Shown here: positions 46,208 through 52,227 of the stretch, piece by piece
How the letters are laid out: each line of letters opens with the position of its first letter
Numbering within the stretch: the first letter of the stretch is position 1
Source: a virus
Strand: one strand, 5' to 3'
Length of the DNA: 64,000 nucleotides
Virus record (IMG/VR): IMGVR_UViG_3300017971_000214
Span: 1 to 64,000 of that record
The notes under the pieces: generated by a model
The model's input: the letters and a program-made list of their open reading frames with translations, nothing else
Database searches by the model: none
Told to the model about the DNA's origin: nothing
Position numbers and translations under genes: made by a program

Positions 46208-47188
46208 TCACTCTCGGCGAACTGGAAGACCTTGTGGGTCGGGCGGCGTCCGCCTCTGAAAATGTGAACGACCCTGCCTTGGCCCACACCCTCCGGGCTC
46301 TCTCGGAGGCGGCCGACTGCGCCCATGCCGCCCTGTTCCGGAAGCTCGTGCAGGACGGAATGCTGAGGGAGGCCCGCGGCAAGATGCCGGAGGAGCCCGT
46401 GGAGGCCCCTAGCAGCCCTCCAGAGGCCCCGGAGGAGCCTGAGGCGGGCGAGGATATCCCCGAGGCGGAAGACGTCTCCAGGAGTCCTCTAGCGGAGGTA
46501 GACCGCAAGTTGGCGGAGGGGCCTGTTTTCCGAGTCCGCCCCCGCAGCTCGACCCGGCGGTGTTCGGTGTGCGGGGAGCCTCAGTGGAAGCGGGCGTCGG
46601 GGTGGGTGTGCAATCGGGGGCACGAGGGAGCAGAGCCGCTGGACGAGTGACATGATCGTCACGTCTTGAGCTTCTGGGCATCTTAGCCTAGAGTATCCCC
46701 CATGCCTCTACTCACCGAAGAACAGAAGCGGCTCATGGGGATCGAACCCCGCGACTTCGGCGGCATGCCTGCCATGTTCCAGCCCGGAGCCTTCCAAGAG
46801 ATGTCTGCCGAGGAGCTGGCAGAGGCCAAGAAGAAGGCCAAGAAGAAGAAGGCCAAGGGCCGGAAGAAGAGGACCGAGGGTCGCCGGTCGCTGACCCTGT
46901 TCCCCACCACGGAGGCCATGGTCAACGCTCTGGAGCGGGCCAACAAGCTCATCCAGCGGGTGAACGCCACGGTCAACCGCGAGCGCCAGGGGTCCTCGGG
47001 CACCGTCATGAATGAGAAGGCGCGCGCCGACATGTACCGGCTCGACCAAGAGCTAGCCACGGCCATGGACGCCGTGCGTTCGGCGAGCGACGCTCTGGAG
47101 TGCATCGAGCAGGCCAAGAAGATGGCTGCCCGCGAGGCGCGCCAAGCCCGCCGTCAGGGCCGCTAGTTCCCCCCACACCTCCGGGAAG

Positions 47189-47217
47189 AAAGGTCGATCT
47201 TCGGGTCGGCCTTTTTT
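47189..47217 (+). terminator. rho-independent terminator
   Basis: Stem with a cUUCGg loop followed by T6, downstream of the ORF ending at 47166. Confidence 0.75.
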
Positions 47218-47227
47218 GATCTTCCTG

Positions 47228-47256
47228 TTGACAATCCTTTTCCTATGTGATATTGT
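47228..47256 (+). promoter_or_regulatory. sigma70 promoter of the helicase gene
   Basis: TTGACA-17 bp-TATTGT. Confidence 0.75.
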
Positions 47257-47287
47257 TTTTACGTACCCTGGGAGAAGGACAGAGCAG

Positions 47288-50071
47288 ATGGGACGAAAAG
47301 CATGGGCGAATCGGCGGAGCGGAACCTGCGAGGCGTGCGGCACTTCGGTGGCGGCGCAGGCCGGCTGGGTGTACCGGGACGATGCGGGTTCCTGGAAGGT
47401 GTGCTGCAAGAGCGCGGTGTGCGGGACGCAGCTCGGCCTCGCTGGGGCGGCCCCCGAGGCGGCGGAGACGCGGGAGCTGACGGCGGACGGTCGCGTACTG
47501 ATGCCCTACGAGAAAGCAGCGCTCCCCTTGCTGCGGGCGATGCCGGGCGCGCGGTTCGACCGTGACGCCTCCCCGAAGTGTTGGCGCGTGTCACTGGATC
47601 CCGGTGACCGGGACCGGCTCTTGGAGCTAGCGGACGAGCTGAAGCTCGCCGTGGCCCCCGAGCTGCGCACCGTGTCGGAGGACATCGAAGCGTTGTCCAA
47701 GCAGCTCATCGCGGACGGCCTGTACCCCTTCCAGGTGAAGGGCGTGTGTTGGTTGCGGCAGCGACGCCGCGCGTTGCTCGGCGACTCGATGGGACTAGGA
47801 AAAACCATCCAAGTCTTGTTTGCCCTACCCCATCCAAAGGGGTACGGTAAGAATCATGCCGAGAGGAGTGTATCCGAGAACGTCAAATCAGCTCAGAGCC
47901 GCCAAGGAGAATCTAGCCAAGGGGCGGCAGCCGAATGCTCGGCGAAAAGCAAAAGCGACGATGCGGAAGACAGCTCAGACGCCGGAGTGGCGCGCAAAGG
48001 TAAGCGAGGCCACGCGTCGTGCGATGCAGCGTCCCGAAGTGCGAGAGAAGCATCTCAAAGGTCTGAAGGGGAATCCAGTAGGATTCAAGGGGGGAAACGG
48101 ACAGCCTCCAGTTCCGATAGTCGAGTTGGCGGCCATTTTTCTGGAGCCTCTGGGGTTCGTGAGGGAGCTACCAATACGGACGAAAGGCCACGGAACGGAG
48201 TTGCGAGCACCGACACACTACAAGGCAGATTTAGGCCAGCCGGAACTGAAGATCGTAGTGGAACTGGACGGTCCGAGTCATTGGAACAAGCGCCAGCAGG
48301 ACAAGGATCGGAAGAAGACCGAAATCCTGGAAGCACTGGGTTGGACGGTGATCCGCATCCAGCACGGGCGATCGTCATCTGCCCGGCGAGTCTCAAGCTG
48401 AACTGGCGCGACGAGTGCAAGCGGTGGCGTCCGGGCCTGAAGCCTGTCGTGCTCTCGGGTCGCGGCAGCTTCCGGCACCCCGAAGCTGGAGAGGTCATCA
48501 TCACGAACTACGACATCTTGCCGAAGCTACCCCGCTGCACCTGCAAGGCGCACGGTCAGCTGAAGTACGTATCGGGCACCTGGGAGTGGGTGTGCGAGAA
48601 GTGCTCCAAGAAGAGCAACGCCACGGTGACCATCAAGGCCGACCCCGTGCTCGACCTCTCGGGCAAGGGGATCGTCGTGGTCGCCGACGAGTCCACCGCG
48701 GTCAAGAACTTCAAGGCCATCCGGTCCAAGGTCTTCAAGGCGCTCGCCGTCACCGCCGACAAGGTGTGGCAGCTGTCGGGCACCCCGATGCTCAACCGCC
48801 CGTTTGACCTCTACGGGATGCTCCAGTCCGGAGACATGGCCTACGAGGTGTTCGGTGGCTGGAGGTCCTTCCTCCGCTGCTTCAACGGCTACAAGAACCG
48901 GTGGGGCGGCTACGAGTTCGGCGAGCCTCTTCCCGAGACCCCTGAGCGCCTGCGCCGTGTGATGCTGCGCCGGCTCAAGACCGAGGTGCTGACTGATCTC
49001 CCTGAGGTCACCTACCAGACCCTCACCGTCAACAGTCTCGACAAGGGCCTGAAGGCGGAGCTGGACGCCGCGTGGAGCGCCTGGAACGACGAGGCCGAAG
49101 CACTCGACGGGCTCGCCGATGGTGCCCCCGCAGACCTTCCTCCCTTCGAGCAGTTCTCGAAGCTGCGCGCGAAGCTCGCTGCCAGCCGCATCAACGCGAT
49201 GCTTGATCTGGTCGAGCAGTACGAGGACAACGAGCAGCCGCTCATCGTCTTCTCCGCGCATCGCGCCCCCATCGACACCTTGGCCAAGCGCGAGGGGTGG
49301 GCCGTCATCACCGGCGACACCAACGCTGAGGCCCGCAACGAGGCCGTCAAGCGCTTCCAGAGCGGCGAGCTGAAGGGCATCGGCCTGACCATCAAGGCCG
49401 GCGGCTACGGGCTCACGCTGACCCGCGGCAGCCACCTTCTGTTCGTCGACCTCGAATGGACCCCCTCCGCCAACGCGCAGGCAGAGGACCGGGCTCGTCG
49501 TATCGGGCAGACCGCCGACTCGATTCAGGTCACCCGCATGGTCTCCGACCACCCGCTCGACCAGCACGTCCTACGGCTTCTCGCTGAGAAGACCGCCATG
49601 ATCTTCAAGGCTGTCGAAGCCGAGGTGCAGTACAAGCGGGCGCCCAAGCCCAAAACCGCCCAGCCCAGCGGTTGGGTGCAGGAGAGCGACGCGGACCAGC
49701 AGGCGCGCAAGGATGCCATCGAGCAGGCCGCCAAGGAGGCCGAGAAGGCTCAGGCGCAGAAGCGCATCGACAAGATCATCCTCCAGGAAAAGGACCGTCA
49801 GGGCACCGCTCCGGGCGAGACCTTGGAGCTGACCTCCGAAGTCCGCCAGGCTCTCACCGATGCCTTCTACTTCATGAAGAGCGTCTGCGATGGCGCGCAG
49901 GAGAAGGACGGCCAAGGGTTCTCCAAGCCCGACGTCTACCGCACCGCGTTCCTCGCATCGTGGATGGACACCGGAGAGGAGACCGCGTTCCGCGCGGCGG
50001 CCATGATCCTCTGCCGCTACAGGCGGCAGCTCGGCAAGCAGTTCCCCATCCTTTTCAAGAAGGCGGCTTGA
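47288..50071 (+). CDS. SNF2/HARP-like helicase with a 175-codon in-frame insertion
   Basis: LYPFQ, DSMGLGKT, VICPASLKLNW, ADES, LSGTPMLN, GYGLTL and QAEDRARRIGQ motifs. Confidence 0.9.
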   Translation: MGRKAWANRRSGTCEACGTSVAAQAGWVYRDDAGSWKVCCKSAVCGTQLGLAGAAPEAAETRELTADGRVLMPYEKAALPLLRAMPGARFDRDASPKCWRVSLDPGDRDRLLELADELKLAVAPELRTVSEDIEALSKQLIADGLYPFQVKGVCWLRQRRRALLGDSMGLGKTIQVLFALPHPKGYGKNHAERSVSENVKSAQSRQGESSQGAAAECSAKSKSDDAEDSSDAGVARKGKRGHASCDAASRSAREASQRSEGESSRIQGGKRTASSSDSRVGGHFSGASGVREGATNTDERPRNGVASTDTLQGRFRPAGTEDRSGTGRSESLEQAPAGQGSEEDRNPGSTGLDGDPHPARAIVICPASLKLNWRDECKRWRPGLKPVVLSGRGSFRHPEAGEVIITNYDILPKLPRCTCKAHGQLKYVSGTWEWVCEKCSKKSNATVTIKADPVLDLSGKGIVVVADESTAVKNFKAIRSKVFKALAVTADKVWQLSGTPMLNRPFDLYGMLQSGDMAYEVFGGWRSFLRCFNGYKNRWGGYEFGEPLPETPERLRRVMLRRLKTEVLTDLPEVTYQTLTVNSLDKGLKAELDAAWSAWNDEAEALDGLADGAPADLPPFEQFSKLRAKLAASRINAMLDLVEQYEDNEQPLIVFSAHRAPIDTLAKREGWAVITGDTNAEARNEAVKRFQSGELKGIGLTIKAGGYGLTLTRGSHLLFVDLEWTPSANAQAEDRARRIGQTADSIQVTRMVSDHPLDQHVLRLLAEKTAMIFKAVEAEVQYKRAPKPKTAQPSGWVQESDADQQARKDAIEQAAKEAEKAQAQKRIDKIILQEKDRQGTAPGETLELTSEVRQALTDAFYFMKSVCDGAQEKDGQGFSKPDVYRTAFLASWMDTGEETAFRAAAMILCRYRRQLGKQFPILFKKAA
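47856..48401 (+). mobile_element. nested +1-frame DUF559/Vsr-like putative homing endonuclease
   Basis: Basic helical N-terminus followed by YKADL...VVELDGPSH...D.KK...L...GWTVIRI. Confidence 0.8.
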
Positions 50072-50072
50072 G

Positions 50073-50588
50073 ATGTCGAAGGGAAAGAAGCGCAGGAAGG
50101 GCGAGCCCACAGGAAAGCAGCGCCGACGAGAGAAGGCCCGGCTCCGATTCGTGCGGACGGTTCAGGACTTCTGGTCTGACTTCGAGGAGTGCCCTCTGTC
50201 CGAGGACTACATCAAGGCGAACCCCAAGGCCGTGGAACAAGGAGACCGCATGTTCTGGAACAGTCGCTACCACGTGTGGCTGCGCGACTTCCACTCCGAG
50301 GCGTTCGACACGACCATAACGCACCTGTCGATCAAACGGAACGACAAGGAGCCGTTGCACGACTGGAGAGATCTGCAGAGGATCAAGAACGAGCTGTGCG
50401 GCGAAGAACGAGAGGCCATCGAGCTGTACCCTGCGGAGTCGCGGACTGTCGATTTGGCAAATCAGTATCACCTCTGGGTGTTCCCGGAAGGGGTGAGGGT
50501 GCCCCTAGGATTCTTCGAGGGGCAGATGAAGGGCACACCGAAAGAAGCGGAAGAGATAGGCGCGAAGCAACGTAGGTTCGAGAGCTGA
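50073..50588 (+). CDS. conserved-type phage hypothetical protein
   Basis: HLSIKR...WRDLQRIKNE...EAIELYPAES...N.YHLW. Confidence 0.7.
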   Translation: MSKGKKRRKGEPTGKQRRREKARLRFVRTVQDFWSDFEECPLSEDYIKANPKAVEQGDRMFWNSRYHVWLRDFHSEAFDTTITHLSIKRNDKEPLHDWRDLQRIKNELCGEEREAIELYPAESRTVDLANQYHLWVFPEGVRVPLGFFEGQMKGTPKEAEEIGAKQRRFES

Positions 50589-51462: not shown

Positions 51463-52227
51463 ATGAAGCCCGGAAGGCCGCCGAAACATGGGCATGCGAA
51501 GACTGGGTTCAGGACTTCTGAGTACGTCGCTTGGGTGAGCATGATCTCTAGGTGCGTCAACCCGTCGCACAAGAGCTTTGGCCTCTATGGAGGTCGTGGC
51601 ATACGTGTTTGCGCCAGATGGTTGGATTCGTTCTCCAACTTCCTTGCGGACATGGGAGTGAAACCAGACCCGTCGTGTTCTGTAGATCGCATAGACCCCG
51701 AAGGGGATTACGAGCCACGCAACTGTCGTTGGGCCACCCCGAAGCAGCAAGCCAGGAACAGGAGAAATACGACGTTCCTTACTTCAGAAGGGACAACGAA
51801 GTCTTTGATGGACTGGGCTGAAGAACTGGGTGTTTCTGCAACTGCTATTCGGGAGCGGCTGCGCCGAGGTTGGTCAGACGAAGAGGCGTTGAGTACGCCT
51901 TTCAAGCCTAGGCTAACGAAGGGGACCGTACTCGCCATCTGCAAAGAGTACGATCTAGGGGGTGTGACGATCACAGACCTAGCAACACGGCACGCCACCA
52001 ACCCTTCTACAGTGCAGGCCATTTTGAGCGGGCGGCAGTGGGGGGACGTGACGGGAAGAACGTACACGCCGGTGGTGGGGAGAAAGAAGCCAGTCCTGCT
52101 GAAGCGCGGGGAATCACTTATCACCAAGATCCGAAGGATGATTGATCGAGGTATGTCCCAGCGGGCTGTGGCGCGCGAGCTGGGAACGTCACACACGACG
52201 ATAGCGCGCATTCTTGAGGAGGACTGA
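51463..52227 (+). mobile_element. free-standing HNH-type homing endonuclease with C-terminal HTHs
   Basis: W.SM..RC...YGGRGI.VC.RW...F..DMG...SVDRID..G.YEP.NCRWAT..QQARN; lower GC than its neighbours. Confidence 0.8.

What the first reader, a model, noticed from the sequence alone, without database searches (positions are those of the whole stretch)
47828..48401. Endonuclease gene hidden in the +1 frame of a helicase, with no intron or intein
Seen: between motif I (GLGKT) and motif Ia (VICPASLK), the SNF2 helicase carries 525 extra nt (47837-48361). The helicase frame stays stop-free but reads as S/G/A/R-rich low-complexity sequence. The +1 frame (ATG at 47856) encodes a clean DUF559/Vsr-like nuclease whose tail overlaps motif Ia. 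I see no intein C/S...HN motifs and no intron core. The insert is bounded by a direct repeat CCNCATCCA (Pro-His-Pro) at 47828-36 and 48353-61. Inference: this is a homing element that stays neutral by being translated as a disordered loop, or one that is skipped by ribosomal bypassing between matched codons. Either would be a third lifestyle besides introns and inteins.
Basis: partly seen in the sequence, partly recalled or inferred. Interest (0 to 1): 0.8.

Follow-up and report, generated by a model that had tools for sequence, protein, structure and literature searches.

The report
Hidden homing endonuclease inside phage helicase
A selfish DNA-cutting gene lies one base out of step inside a phage helicase gene, with no intron or intein to remove it, so the helicase is probably made with an extra floppy loop; this splicing-free layout was first published in 2025 for other genes.

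Summary
A 525-nt insert (47837-48361) sits between motif I and motif Ia of a phage SNF2 helicase. Its +1 frame encodes an intact DUF559/Vsr-like (E-D-H-D motif) endonuclease. The helicase frame stays stop-free, and I found no intein or intron signature. Codon choice keeps that frame open: 0 stops against 5.9 expected (1 of 5000 synonymous shuffles). The same holds in every nested relative, whereas two non-nested relatives carry 4 and 5 stops.

Two wetland metagenomes hold the empty allele of a phage about 99% identical in the flanks. The insert-bearing allele also differs in 51 nt to the left and about 85 nt to the right. That looks like co-conversion during a recent recombinational gain.

Related endonucleases split into two clades. 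One is nested in inteins of DExH helicases. The other is intein-less, mostly in SNF2 helicases at other sites near the P-loop.

The 9-nt direct repeat is not beyond chance, and bypassing has no support. The "third lifestyle" is already in print (Arsenault et al. 2025, hidden HNH in a methylase). Earlier notes of this scan report it with other nucleases in other phages' SNF2 helicases. This is therefore a new variant of a known kind. Read-through and helicase function remain untested.

The parts
47228..47256 (+). Promoter-like site upstream of the helicase start (TTGACA, 17 nt, TATTGT, with TG). It is the only such site in 47000-50300, and none lies next to the endonuclease gene.
47288..50071 (+). 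SNF2-family helicase gene: 927 aa with the insert, 752 aa without it.
47786..47836 (+). Left flank (helicase codons S167-P183, including GLGKT). It differs from the empty allele although the 211 nt upstream are identical. I read it as a co-converted donor tract.
   Evidence: X3 record 18 ends at 47785 and runs on unlike the window
47837..48361 (+). The 525-nt insert. In the helicase frame it reads as 175 stop-free, hydrophilic residues (K184-P358), predicted disordered.
47812..47855 (+). Leader of the endonuclease gene. It aligns with the conserved leader of sister elements but lacks their -10 box. An AAGGGG motif lies 13-18 nt before the ATG.
47856..48401 (+). Endonuclease ORF in the +1 frame (181 aa). 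It has four N-terminal helices and a DUF559/Vsr-like nuclease domain with E136, D138, H142 and D151. The last 11 codons and the stop lie in helicase DNA, over motif Ia.
48362..48445 (+). Right flank with raised divergence from the empty allele: 8 differences in 48372-48481, clustered at 48430-48445, against 6 in the next 420 nt.
47828..47836 (+). Left copy of the 9-nt direct repeat. The right copy is at 48353-48361. The match is 8 of 9 bases and is not beyond chance.

Best explanation
This is a free-standing homing-type endonuclease gene of the DUF559/Vsr-like superfamily, with the E-D-x-H-D residues of the I-Bth0305I type. It is carried in a 525-nt insertion that is never spliced out.

The insertion is a multiple of three, and the endonuclease's codons are chosen so that the reading frame one base upstream, the helicase's, has no stop. 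Ribosomes on the helicase message therefore read straight through. They would make a helicase with a 175-residue hydrophilic, disordered loop between the helix after the P-loop and the motif Ia strand. The endonuclease would be made separately from its own ATG in the +1 frame of the same transcript.

The cassette entered this phage recently by recombination with a donor helicase allele, and short stretches of donor flank came in with it.

Shown: the anatomy, the absence from homologues, the empty allele, the selected stop-free frame, and the absence of intein or intron signatures. Inferred: read-through in vivo, retained helicase activity, endonuclease activity and its target, and homing as the route of entry.
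For: (1) The insert is private. It is absent from P0002-P0008. 90 of the 91 homologues that could be scored have short motif I-Ia spacing. Only 2 of 70 aligned homologues have a private insertion of 60 aa or more, and the other one, P0081, carries a sister element at another site.

(2) The empty allele exists. Contigs of runs X3 and X4 (two studies) match the flanks at 0 differences in 211 nt, 2 in 276, 6 in 420 and 2 in 176. They leave the window at 47785 and rejoin it at 48372. Their loose ends read D-M-G-L-G and L-K-A-L-P-E-N-G-R-V, the insert-free sequence.

(3) The host frame is open by selection. The window has 0 stops against 5.87 expected, P about 2e-4. All 36 distinct nested relatives have 0 stops, and so do the 8 further nested ones, against 1.5-11.4 expected. 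The third frame carries stops about as expected. The non-nested clade members L048 and L054 have 5 and 4 stops in that frame. In L044 the endonuclease frame is broken after 47 codons while the 894-aa host ORF stays open.

(4) The DNA is selected as an endonuclease. Mean pairwise identity is 0.532 in the endonuclease frame and 0.265 in the host frame, and it is higher in 55 of 55 pairs. E136, D138, H142 and D151 are invariant in 14 of 14 sequences. The match to DUF559 is E 2.5e-9, and a profile hits PDB 3hrl_A at 1.5e-8.

(5) There are no splicing signatures. The protein has no Hint or intein family. The residues at the ends of the insert are K184 and P358, followed by A359. Rfam finds no intron at E<=1 in 46500-50500. 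The ORF fills 506 of the 525 nt.

(6) AlphaFold2 keeps both halves of the helicase core confident, and only residues 205-351 fall below pLDDT 50.
Against: No RNA or protein data exist; no RNA run is listed. The insertion is very recent, since the flanks are 99-100% identical to the empty allele. The open frame in this copy could therefore be inherited rather than maintained here, and the helicase has had no time to decay if it is dead.

The site lies inside RecA-like domain 1. Most sister elements sit instead in the linker before the Q motif. No second helicase with an insert at this site was found, so the donor is unseen.

In two sister loci, L006 and L053, the host frame is broken just after the element, so these helicases may tolerate damage.

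The window's copy lacks the promoter consensus of its sisters and has only a weak ribosome-binding motif.

A low-pLDDT loop is what AlphaFold2 gives for any orphan insert. The fold match to I-Bth0305I is weak (E 1.3e-2).
Confidence: 0.68

Rival explanations
1. Dead on arrival. The cassette landed in the RecA-like core and inactivated a dispensable helicase. The stop-free frame is only inherited from the donor element, where it was selected, and will decay here.
For: The gain is very recent. The site lies inside the ATPase core, between motif I and motif Ia. Sister loci L006 and L053 have broken host frames. The published ShiLan case sits in a non-essential gene (PMC11855218 section 4.1).
Against: The insert lies exactly in the loop between helix 172-179 and strand 360-364, with both sides modelled at pLDDT above 90. 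The co-converted flank encodes an intact GLGKT and helix, which implies a donor helicase that had kept this arrangement. Across the family, host frames stay open over a divergence of 45-60% endonuclease identity, which is not expected if hosts were routinely dead. The same insert-bearing sequence is found in two runs, though both may be the source sample.
Confidence: 0.2
2. RNA splicing. The insert is an unrecognised self-splicing intron that carries its endonuclease ORF.
For: Endonucleases of this type occur in group I introns: I-Bth0305I in a phage recA intron (PMC3239194, search listing and start of abstract only).
Against: Rfam finds no intron at E<=1. The ORF occupies 506 of 525 nt and runs 40 nt into the downstream exon, leaving no room for a ribozyme core. 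An intron would not need the host frame free of stops, yet that frame is selected.
Confidence: 0.04
3. Translational bypassing or another recoding event skips the insert between the two CCNCATCCA copies.
For: A homing-endonuclease cassette with a 50-nt bypass exists in T4 gene 60 (10.1101/2022.08.31.505936 and 10.1101/2024.12.09.627546, search listing and start of abstracts only). Sister loci L006 and L053 carry an 8-nt insert with a stop inside the P-loop codons, which would need recoding.
Against: In the window no stop follows the would-be take-off codon. The 525-nt gap is ten times the known one. The repeat is at chance level. Bypassing would not select for an open host frame.
Confidence: 0.02
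4. Protein splicing by an unrecognised, very small or degenerate splicing element.
For: The sister clade of this endonuclease lives in the same +1 register inside inteins.
Against: The protein has no Hint or intein family, whereas 3 of 3 intein-type hosts that I tested have one. There is no Cys, Ser or Thr at either junction and no His-Asn at the end. All 175 residues are constrained by the endonuclease frame.
Confidence: 0.02

Closest known systems
ShiLan domain and Pacc40 gp60 insertion: 'hidden' out-of-frame HNH endonucleases in actinophage DNA methylase genes (Arsenault, Gosselin and Gogarten, Genes 2025, PMC11855218; abstract and sections 3.6 and 4 read)
   Same: An in-frame insertion absent from relatives. 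The host frame is stop-free and reads as a disordered, unassignable sequence. A nuclease ORF lies in another frame of the same strand. No intein or intron is detectable. The proposed mechanism is read-through as a loop.
   Different: The nuclease family is DUF559/Vsr-like rather than HNH. The host gene is an SNF2 helicase, and the site is inside its RecA-like core. The phage is an uncultured one at about 62% G+C, not a mycobacteriophage. Three things are added here: a codon-level test that the host frame is under selection, an empty allele with co-converted flanks, and an intein-nested sister clade.
Non-canonical inteins with the homing endonuclease out of frame or antisense (Gosselin, Arsenault and Gogarten, bioRxiv 10.1101/2025.01.02.630785; abstract and sections on HEN variation and non-canonical inteins read)
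   Same: A Vsr-like/EDxHD-type endonuclease is overprinted on a host frame that stays open. The related loci found here (L001-L004, L010-L042) have this layout in DExH helicase inteins, with the endonuclease in the +1 frame.
   Different: In those cases an intein removes the overprinted stretch after translation. The window has no intein. The preprint reports the Vsr-like type as antisense, whereas the relatives found here are on the same strand in the +1 frame.
Fractured genes: split inteins flanking a free-standing Vsr-like endonuclease gene (Dassa et al. 2009, PMC2677866; passages read)
   Same: The nuclease superfamily is the same. The endonuclease gene sits inside a replication or repair gene, and its 3' end overlaps the downstream host coding region.
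   Different: There the host gene is broken into two ORFs that are rejoined by trans-splicing. Here the host ORF is continuous and no intein halves exist.
I-Bth0305I, founding EDxHD homing endonuclease (Taylor et al. 2011, PMC3239194; search listing and start of abstract only; PDB 3r3p)
   Same: The E, D, H and D residues are present, and the nuclease domain has a weak fold match (E 1.3e-2, probability 0.99, TM 0.50 on the target).
   Different: I-Bth0305I is encoded in a group I intron. The profile built here does not hit it by sequence at E<=0.01.
T4 gene 60 / mobA cassette (50-nt ribosomal bypass; 10.1101/2022.08.31.505936, search listing and start of abstract only; the mobA link is recalled)
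   Same: A homing-endonuclease cassette that leaves the host protein intact without RNA or protein splicing.
   Different: There the extra RNA is skipped by the ribosome. Here it is most likely translated.

Membership tests
Hidden out-of-frame homing-endonuclease insertion (ShiLan type) | In-frame insertion absent from close homologues | tested here: met
   the empty allele is seen at DNA level
Hidden out-of-frame homing-endonuclease insertion (ShiLan type) | Host frame free of stops through the insertion, beyond chance | tested here: met
   0 stops observed, 5.87 expected, 1 of 5000 shuffles; one search gives the controls
Hidden out-of-frame homing-endonuclease insertion (ShiLan type) | A complete nuclease ORF in another frame of the insertion | tested here: met
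Hidden out-of-frame homing-endonuclease insertion (ShiLan type) | No intein and no intron detectable | tested here: met
Hidden out-of-frame homing-endonuclease insertion (ShiLan type) | The nuclease is of the HNH type | tested here: not met
   DUF559, with no HNH family. This is why I file it as a variant rather than a member.
Hidden out-of-frame homing-endonuclease insertion (ShiLan type) | The insert is retained in the mature RNA and protein | not testable with these tools
   No RNA run is listed. This has also not been tested in the published cases (PMC11855218 section 4.4).
EDxHD homing endonucleases (I-Bth0305I) | Conserved E, D, H and D catalytic residues | tested here: met
   E136, D138, H142 and D151 are invariant in 5 of 5 sequences and 14 of 14
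EDxHD homing endonucleases (I-Bth0305I) | Vsr-like fold matching PDB 3r3p | tested here: inconclusive
   3r3p_A at E 1.3e-2, probability 0.99, TM 0.50 on the target; no PDB match at E<=0.001. In one search the profile hits 3hrl_A but not 3r3p.
EDxHD homing endonucleases (I-Bth0305I) | Site-specific cleavage of the insert-free allele | not testable with these tools
   Needs an enzyme assay on the empty-allele sequence
DUF559 (PF04480) | Score above Pfam's gathering cut-off | tested here: met
   37.4 bits against 20.6
Intein | Hint/splicing domain blocks in the host frame | tested here: not met
   none in the whole protein or in the 175-aa insert. The positive control gave 3 of 3 intein-type hosts.
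Intein | Cys/Ser/Thr as the first residue, His-Asn at the end, and Cys/Ser/Thr at +1 | tested here: not met
   The insert starts with K184 and ends ...H-P358, and the next residue is A359
Group I or group II intron | Match to a ribozyme covariance model, and room for a core outside the ORF | tested here: not met
   no intron family at E<=1; the ORF fills 506 of 525 nt
Gene 60-type translational bypass | Take-off codon followed by a stop, and a matched landing codon about 50 nt on | tested here: not met
   The host frame has no stop, the gap would be 525 nt, and the repeat is at chance level
Fractured gene (Dassa et al. 2009) | Host gene split into two ORFs by split-intein halves | tested here: not met
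   One continuous 927-aa ORF with no intein halves
SNF2 family helicase (the host gene) | SNF2-rel_dom plus Helicase_C above the cut-offs | tested here: met
   91.7 and 45.7 bits

The most novel reading that the evidence does not exclude
One endonuclease lineage, always in the +1 register, may have three ways of living in the ATPase genes of phages. It sits inside inteins, it is read through as a loop with no splicing, and in L006 and L053 it sits beside an 8-nt insert with a stop in the P-loop codons that would need a short ribosomal hop or a -1 shift.

On this reading its stop-free minus-one frame is a heritable pre-adaptation. It lets the gene colonise new positions around the P-loop, including the core of a RecA-like domain. 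Some copies carry their own promoter, written so that the host frame reads it as the peptide L-D-F-S-L-C-P-L-Y-N. The window's copy would then be a freshly homed example that is caught together with its empty allele.
Probability: 0.2. Interest if true: 0.75.

Novelty: new variant of a known kind. Interest (0 to 1): 0.45.

Why it matters
Homing endonucleases are usually said to survive inside genes only with the help of a self-splicing intron or intein. This locus adds a second nuclease family and a new, more demanding site, the core of an ATPase domain, to the recently described splicing-free route.

It also comes with material that makes the idea directly testable. There is an almost identical empty allele to use as a cleavage and homing substrate. 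There is a clear prediction for protein size, 927 against 752 residues. There are natural controls: relatives in inteins, relatives that are not nested, and a relative whose endonuclease has decayed while the host frame is kept.

There is a practical point too. Gene callers miss such nested genes and annotate the host as one long 'helicase', as in the four GenBank phages seen here. Nuclease content and mobile-element load of phage genomes are therefore under-counted.

Tried and rejected
- blastn of the helicase gene against GenBank phages: no match.
- A scan of viral contigs with the insert-free homologue P0002: no pattern match. The empty allele's DNA therefore came only from short contigs.
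- RNA evidence: no RNA holder is listed for window 47500-48700, so neither splicing nor expression could be examined.
- Read laying gave no 'joint' row for the empty allele, because its flanks next to the insert differ from the window. The empty allele was read from loose ends instead.
I do not count them as independent.
- A second helicase with an insert between motif I and motif Ia was looked for in viral contigs, JGI metagenomes and GTDB genomes with endonuclease profiles. None was found.
- The direct repeat as a target-site duplication or as take-off and landing codons: rejected as chance level.
- A search of viral contigs for the 8-nt P-loop insert motif found only L006's own contig.
- The promoter tool did not list the leader site in L045, whose -10 box ends in G. 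It did list the site in L060 and L043.
- The careful tree search did not finish, so only the quick tree is reported.
- One script ran into the time limit because of an unbounded loop and was corrected.
- Literature searches for an out-of-frame or overlapping homing endonuclease in a helicase without an intein returned only the 2025 preprint and a recoding review.
- Supplementary tables of the two Gogarten-group papers, which list further out-of-frame elements, could not be seen. They may already include Vsr-like or SNF2 cases.
Full report
**What is there.** The window is the first 64 kb of a 126,260-nt linear viral record with a CheckV completeness of 68. On the + strand an SNF2-family helicase gene is open from 47216 to 50071. 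Homologues support the ATG at 47288, which gives 927 aa. Pfam finds SNF2-rel_dom (E 5.6e-26) and Helicase_C (E 8.5e-12). GLGKT is encoded at 47792-47806 and VICPASLK at 48374-48397.

Between them lie 175 extra codons, at 47837-48361. Seven close homologues (66-91% identity to the window in the alignment for five of them, 49-50% for two) lack exactly this stretch. They read ALPENGR(A/V) where the window reads ALPHP, then the 175 aa, then ARA. Of the 120 listed homologues, 91 could be scored by a motif regex. 90 of these have 14-19 residues between GxGKT and motif Ia, and the window's protein has 189. In a 70-sequence alignment only the window's protein and P0081 have private insertions of 60 aa or more.

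The +1 frame holds an ORF from the ATG at 47856 to the stop at 48399-48401, 181 aa long. It matches DUF559 above Pfam's cut-off, at 37.4 against 20.6 bits. The host-frame reading of the insert matches nothing at E<=0.01. It is rich in S, G, A and R, with 8.2% hydrophobic residues against 24.7% in the endonuclease frame. The insert has a lower G+C than its flanks.

**Is it more than chance?** I shuffled synonymous codons within the endonuclease ORF, which keeps its protein and its codon usage. This gives a mean of 5.87 stops in the helicase frame, and only 1 of 5000 shuffles had none. The observed count is 0. The third frame has 10 stops against 8.15 expected. So codon choice specifically spares the helicase frame.

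354 of 5000 shuffles of the two junction stretches reach it, and so do 91 of 640 pairs of window stretches 525 nt apart. Its right copy is simply the conserved end of the endonuclease.

**No splicing element.** Pfam finds no Hint or intein family in the protein. As a positive control, 3 of 3 intein-type hosts of related endonucleases gave PT-HINT and Intein_splicing hits, while 0 of 6 SNF2 hosts of sister elements did. The insert begins with Lys, ends with His-Pro and is followed by Ala. Rfam in permissive mode finds no intron at E<=1 in 46500-50500. The ORF fills 506 of the 525 nt and runs 40 nt into the downstream helicase sequence.

**Relatives.** A tblastn of the endonuclease against GenBank phages gave 40 records. 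I opened four of them: Pseudomonas phage MR14, Corynebacterium phage phi673, and Vibrio phages K391 and 104E43.1. In each the match lies inside a gene annotated as one long helicase or hypothetical protein, always in its +1 frame. These hosts are DExH helicases with an intein in motif II (DEC|F...HN|CHH). The endonuclease overprints the intein's linker.

A profile scan of IMG/VR gave 37 loci. In 42 of 42 loci, counting the window and the four GenBank phages, the endonuclease is nested in a long ORF whose frame lies one base upstream, while the remaining frame is closed. All 36 distinct sequences have 0 stops in the host frame, against 1.5-9.5 expected.

Most of these loci are inteins. The closest relatives of the window's gene (45-60% identity) are not. 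L006, L007, L008/L009, and then L043-L047, L049, L053, L055-L058, L060, P0081 and L073 sit in continuous ORFs without intein signatures. Nearly all of those ORFs are SNF2 helicases. Their usual site is the linker just before the Q motif. L006 and L053 sit between the Q motif and motif I. The window's site, just after motif I, is unique in this set.

A quick maximum-likelihood tree separates an intein-less-plus-free clade (16 rows) from the intein-nested group (32 rows) by a branch with 98% SH-aLRT support. The careful search did not finish.

Further shuffles give 0 stops against 4.4-11.4 expected in seven of the eight additional nested loci; the G+C-rich L053 has 0 against 1.97 expected (P = 0.10). 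The non-nested clade members L048 and L054 have 5 and 4 stops in that frame. The open frame is therefore not a by-product of the protein sequence. In L044 the endonuclease frame is cut after 47 codons while the 894-aa host ORF is intact.

Across 11 intein-less elements, the mean pairwise identity is 0.532 in the endonuclease frame and 0.265 in the host frame. It is higher in the endonuclease frame in 55 of 55 pairs.

**The empty allele and how the insert arrived.** No RNA run holds the stretch. Logan contigs of two runs that may be the source sample span 47387-48900 without a difference.

Two wetland metagenomes from two studies, X3 and X4, hold a close relative. Its contigs match at 0 differences in 211 nt (47575-47785), 2 in 276 (47300-47575), 6 in 420 (48481-48900) and 2 in 176 (48627-48802). 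They leave the window exactly at 47785 and come back at 48372. The loose ends translate as D-M-G-L-G... and ...L-K-A-L-P-E-N-G-R-V, which is the insert-free sequence seen in the protein homologues.

So the two alleles differ by more than the 525 nt. They also differ in the 51 nt to the left (47786-47836, which includes synonymous changes in the GLGKT codons) and in a patch to the right (8 differences in 48372-48481, clustered at 48430-48445). Identical DNA outside and a replaced tract around the insert is the pattern expected from double-strand-break repair with co-conversion of donor flanks. Because the replaced flank encodes a proper P-loop and helix, I infer that the donor was a helicase gene carrying the cassette at this same site. 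That donor was not found.

**The endonuclease.** E136, D138, H142 and D151 are invariant in 14 of 14 clade members, and the clade's proteins end ...LGW-V-R-L-K-H. The window's copy has lost its own stop and borrows 11 codons of helicase DNA.

AlphaFold2 (14-sequence alignment, mean pLDDT 84.2) gives four N-terminal helices and an alpha/beta nuclease domain at residues 87-169. The borrowed tail is disordered.

Foldseek finds no PDB match at E<=0.001. I-Bth0305I (3r3p) comes at E 1.3e-2 with TM 0.50 on the target, and Vsr at about 0.08. A sequence profile hits the DUF559-like structure 3hrl at 1.5e-8 but not 3r3p. I therefore file the protein in the DUF559/Vsr-like superfamily and call EDxHD membership likely but not shown.

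**The helicase.** AlphaFold2 (70-sequence alignment, mean pLDDT 82.7) models the core confidently on both sides. Only residues 205-351 fall below pLDDT 50. The insert hangs between helix 172-179 and strand 360-364.

From the general topology of RecA-like domains, that loop lies at the end of the sheet away from the ATP and nucleic-acid sites. This is an inference, not a result. A disordered prediction is also what any orphan insert would give.

**Mechanism and rivals.** The best reading, at about 0.68, is a cassette that is never spliced. The helicase is read through it as a loop. The endonuclease is made from its own ATG on the helicase transcript; only the helicase has a promoter-like site (47228-47256).

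The main rival, at about 0.2, is that this very recent insertion killed a dispensable helicase and the open frame is merely inherited. An intron, bypassing and cryptic protein splicing are each unlikely for the reasons above.

**What is known.** The layout is in print. Arsenault, Gosselin and Gogarten (Genes 2025, PMC11855218; abstract and sections 3.6 and 4 read) describe the ShiLan domain and the Pacc40 gp60 insertion. [quoted passage not shown] Experiments are still outstanding there.

Their preprint (10.1101/2025.01.02.630785; two sections read) reports inteins with out-of-frame or antisense endonucleases, including antisense Vsr-like ones. Dassa et al. 2009 (passages read) described Vsr-like endonucleases in split-intein 'fractured genes'.

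I reached the ShiLan paper through earlier notes of this scan. Those notes also report HNH, endonuclease VII and LAGLIDADG genes hidden in other phages' SNF2 helicases, and intein-overprinted Vsr-like genes. The same stretch was noted once more from another window. My own literature searches for this nuclease type in a helicase without an intein found nothing further. Supplementary lists of the two papers were not available to me.

**Verdict.** The finding is real, selected and recently mobile, but it is a new variant of a kind described in 2025. What is new is the following:
- the nuclease family;
- the site inside the ATPase core;
- the codon-level evidence with natural controls;
- the near-identical empty allele with exchanged flanks;
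- the sister relationship to intein-nested copies in the same register.

Noticed in passing
L006:3561-3595 and L053:1027-1062: In the two sister elements that sit between the Q motif and motif I, the host ORF ends right after D-E-M-G. An 8-nt insert beginning with a stop (TGA or TAA) follows, and G-L-G-K-T then continues in the -1 frame. The feature is shared by two loci whose endonucleases are both about 60% identical to the window's. Skipping the 8 nt restores a perfect DEMGLGKT, and a -1 shift would read L-T-G-L-G-K-T. This is a candidate short hop, frameshift or split gene, and perhaps a way to destroy the endonuclease's own target.
   Followed up: partly
L060:2438-2466; L043:2935-2963; also L044, L047, L056: Sister elements at the pre-Q site carry a conserved leader with a near-consensus promoter (TTGACT, 17 nt, TATAAT; 11 of 12 in L060, the best site in that locus), 38 nt before the endonuclease ATG in L060 and 37 nt in L043. 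In the host frame this DNA reads L-D-F-S-L-C-P-L-Y-N. It explains a 'conserved peptide' seen in hosts of 33-65% G+C. The window's leader aligns with it but lacks the -10 box.
   Followed up: partly
leaders of L007, L008, L053, L055, L060; window 47837-47855: Just before the endonuclease ATG most elements carry a stretch that looks like P-loop codons (M-G-L-G-K; the window reads K-G-Y-G-K-N). It is in varying register with the host frame. It may be a fossil of an ancestral target at motif I. All three insertion sites of the clade lie within about 100 nt of the motif I codons.
   Followed up: no
L044:2992-3132: A near-copy of L043 in which the endonuclease frame stops after 47 codons while the 894-aa helicase ORF stays open. 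This is a decayed endonuclease in a host frame that is kept.
   Followed up: partly
L048:2803-3590: Here the endonuclease is not nested. It is fused in frame behind a first copy of the Q-motif region, and a second Q motif with its own ATG follows the stop. This is a split-gene layout with a duplicated target region.
   Followed up: no
L073:2013-2531: The same endonuclease clade (55% identity) is nested in the +1 frame of a much larger open frame (over 1100 aa) that shows no helicase motifs in the flanks I printed. The 3.3-kb contig is binned with a Patescibacteria MAG. The host frame has 0 stops against 4.43 expected.
   Followed up: partly
P0021, residues about 235-465: An SNF2 homologue of 929 aa has a low-complexity stretch of about 230 aa after motif Ia that other homologues lack. 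It is possibly another hidden element. No DNA was available.
   Followed up: no
window 48403-48463 in runs X1 and X2: A low-depth 151- to 195-nt contig in the likely source sample carries the same variants at 48430, 48435, 48440 and 48445 as the empty allele of X3 and X4. This hints that both alleles coexist in that sample. It is a single low-depth contig, so the hint is weak.
   Followed up: no
window 51463-52227 (+): A 254-aa ORF three genes downstream of the helicase has several helix-turn-helix hits in its C-terminal part (best E 8.9e-9) and no enzyme domain. Its function was not examined.
   Followed up: no
L001, L002, L003, L004 (GenBank phages MR14, phi673, K391, 104E43.1): The deposited annotations show one long helicase or hypothetical gene. 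They mention neither the intein nor the overprinted endonuclease.
   Followed up: partly
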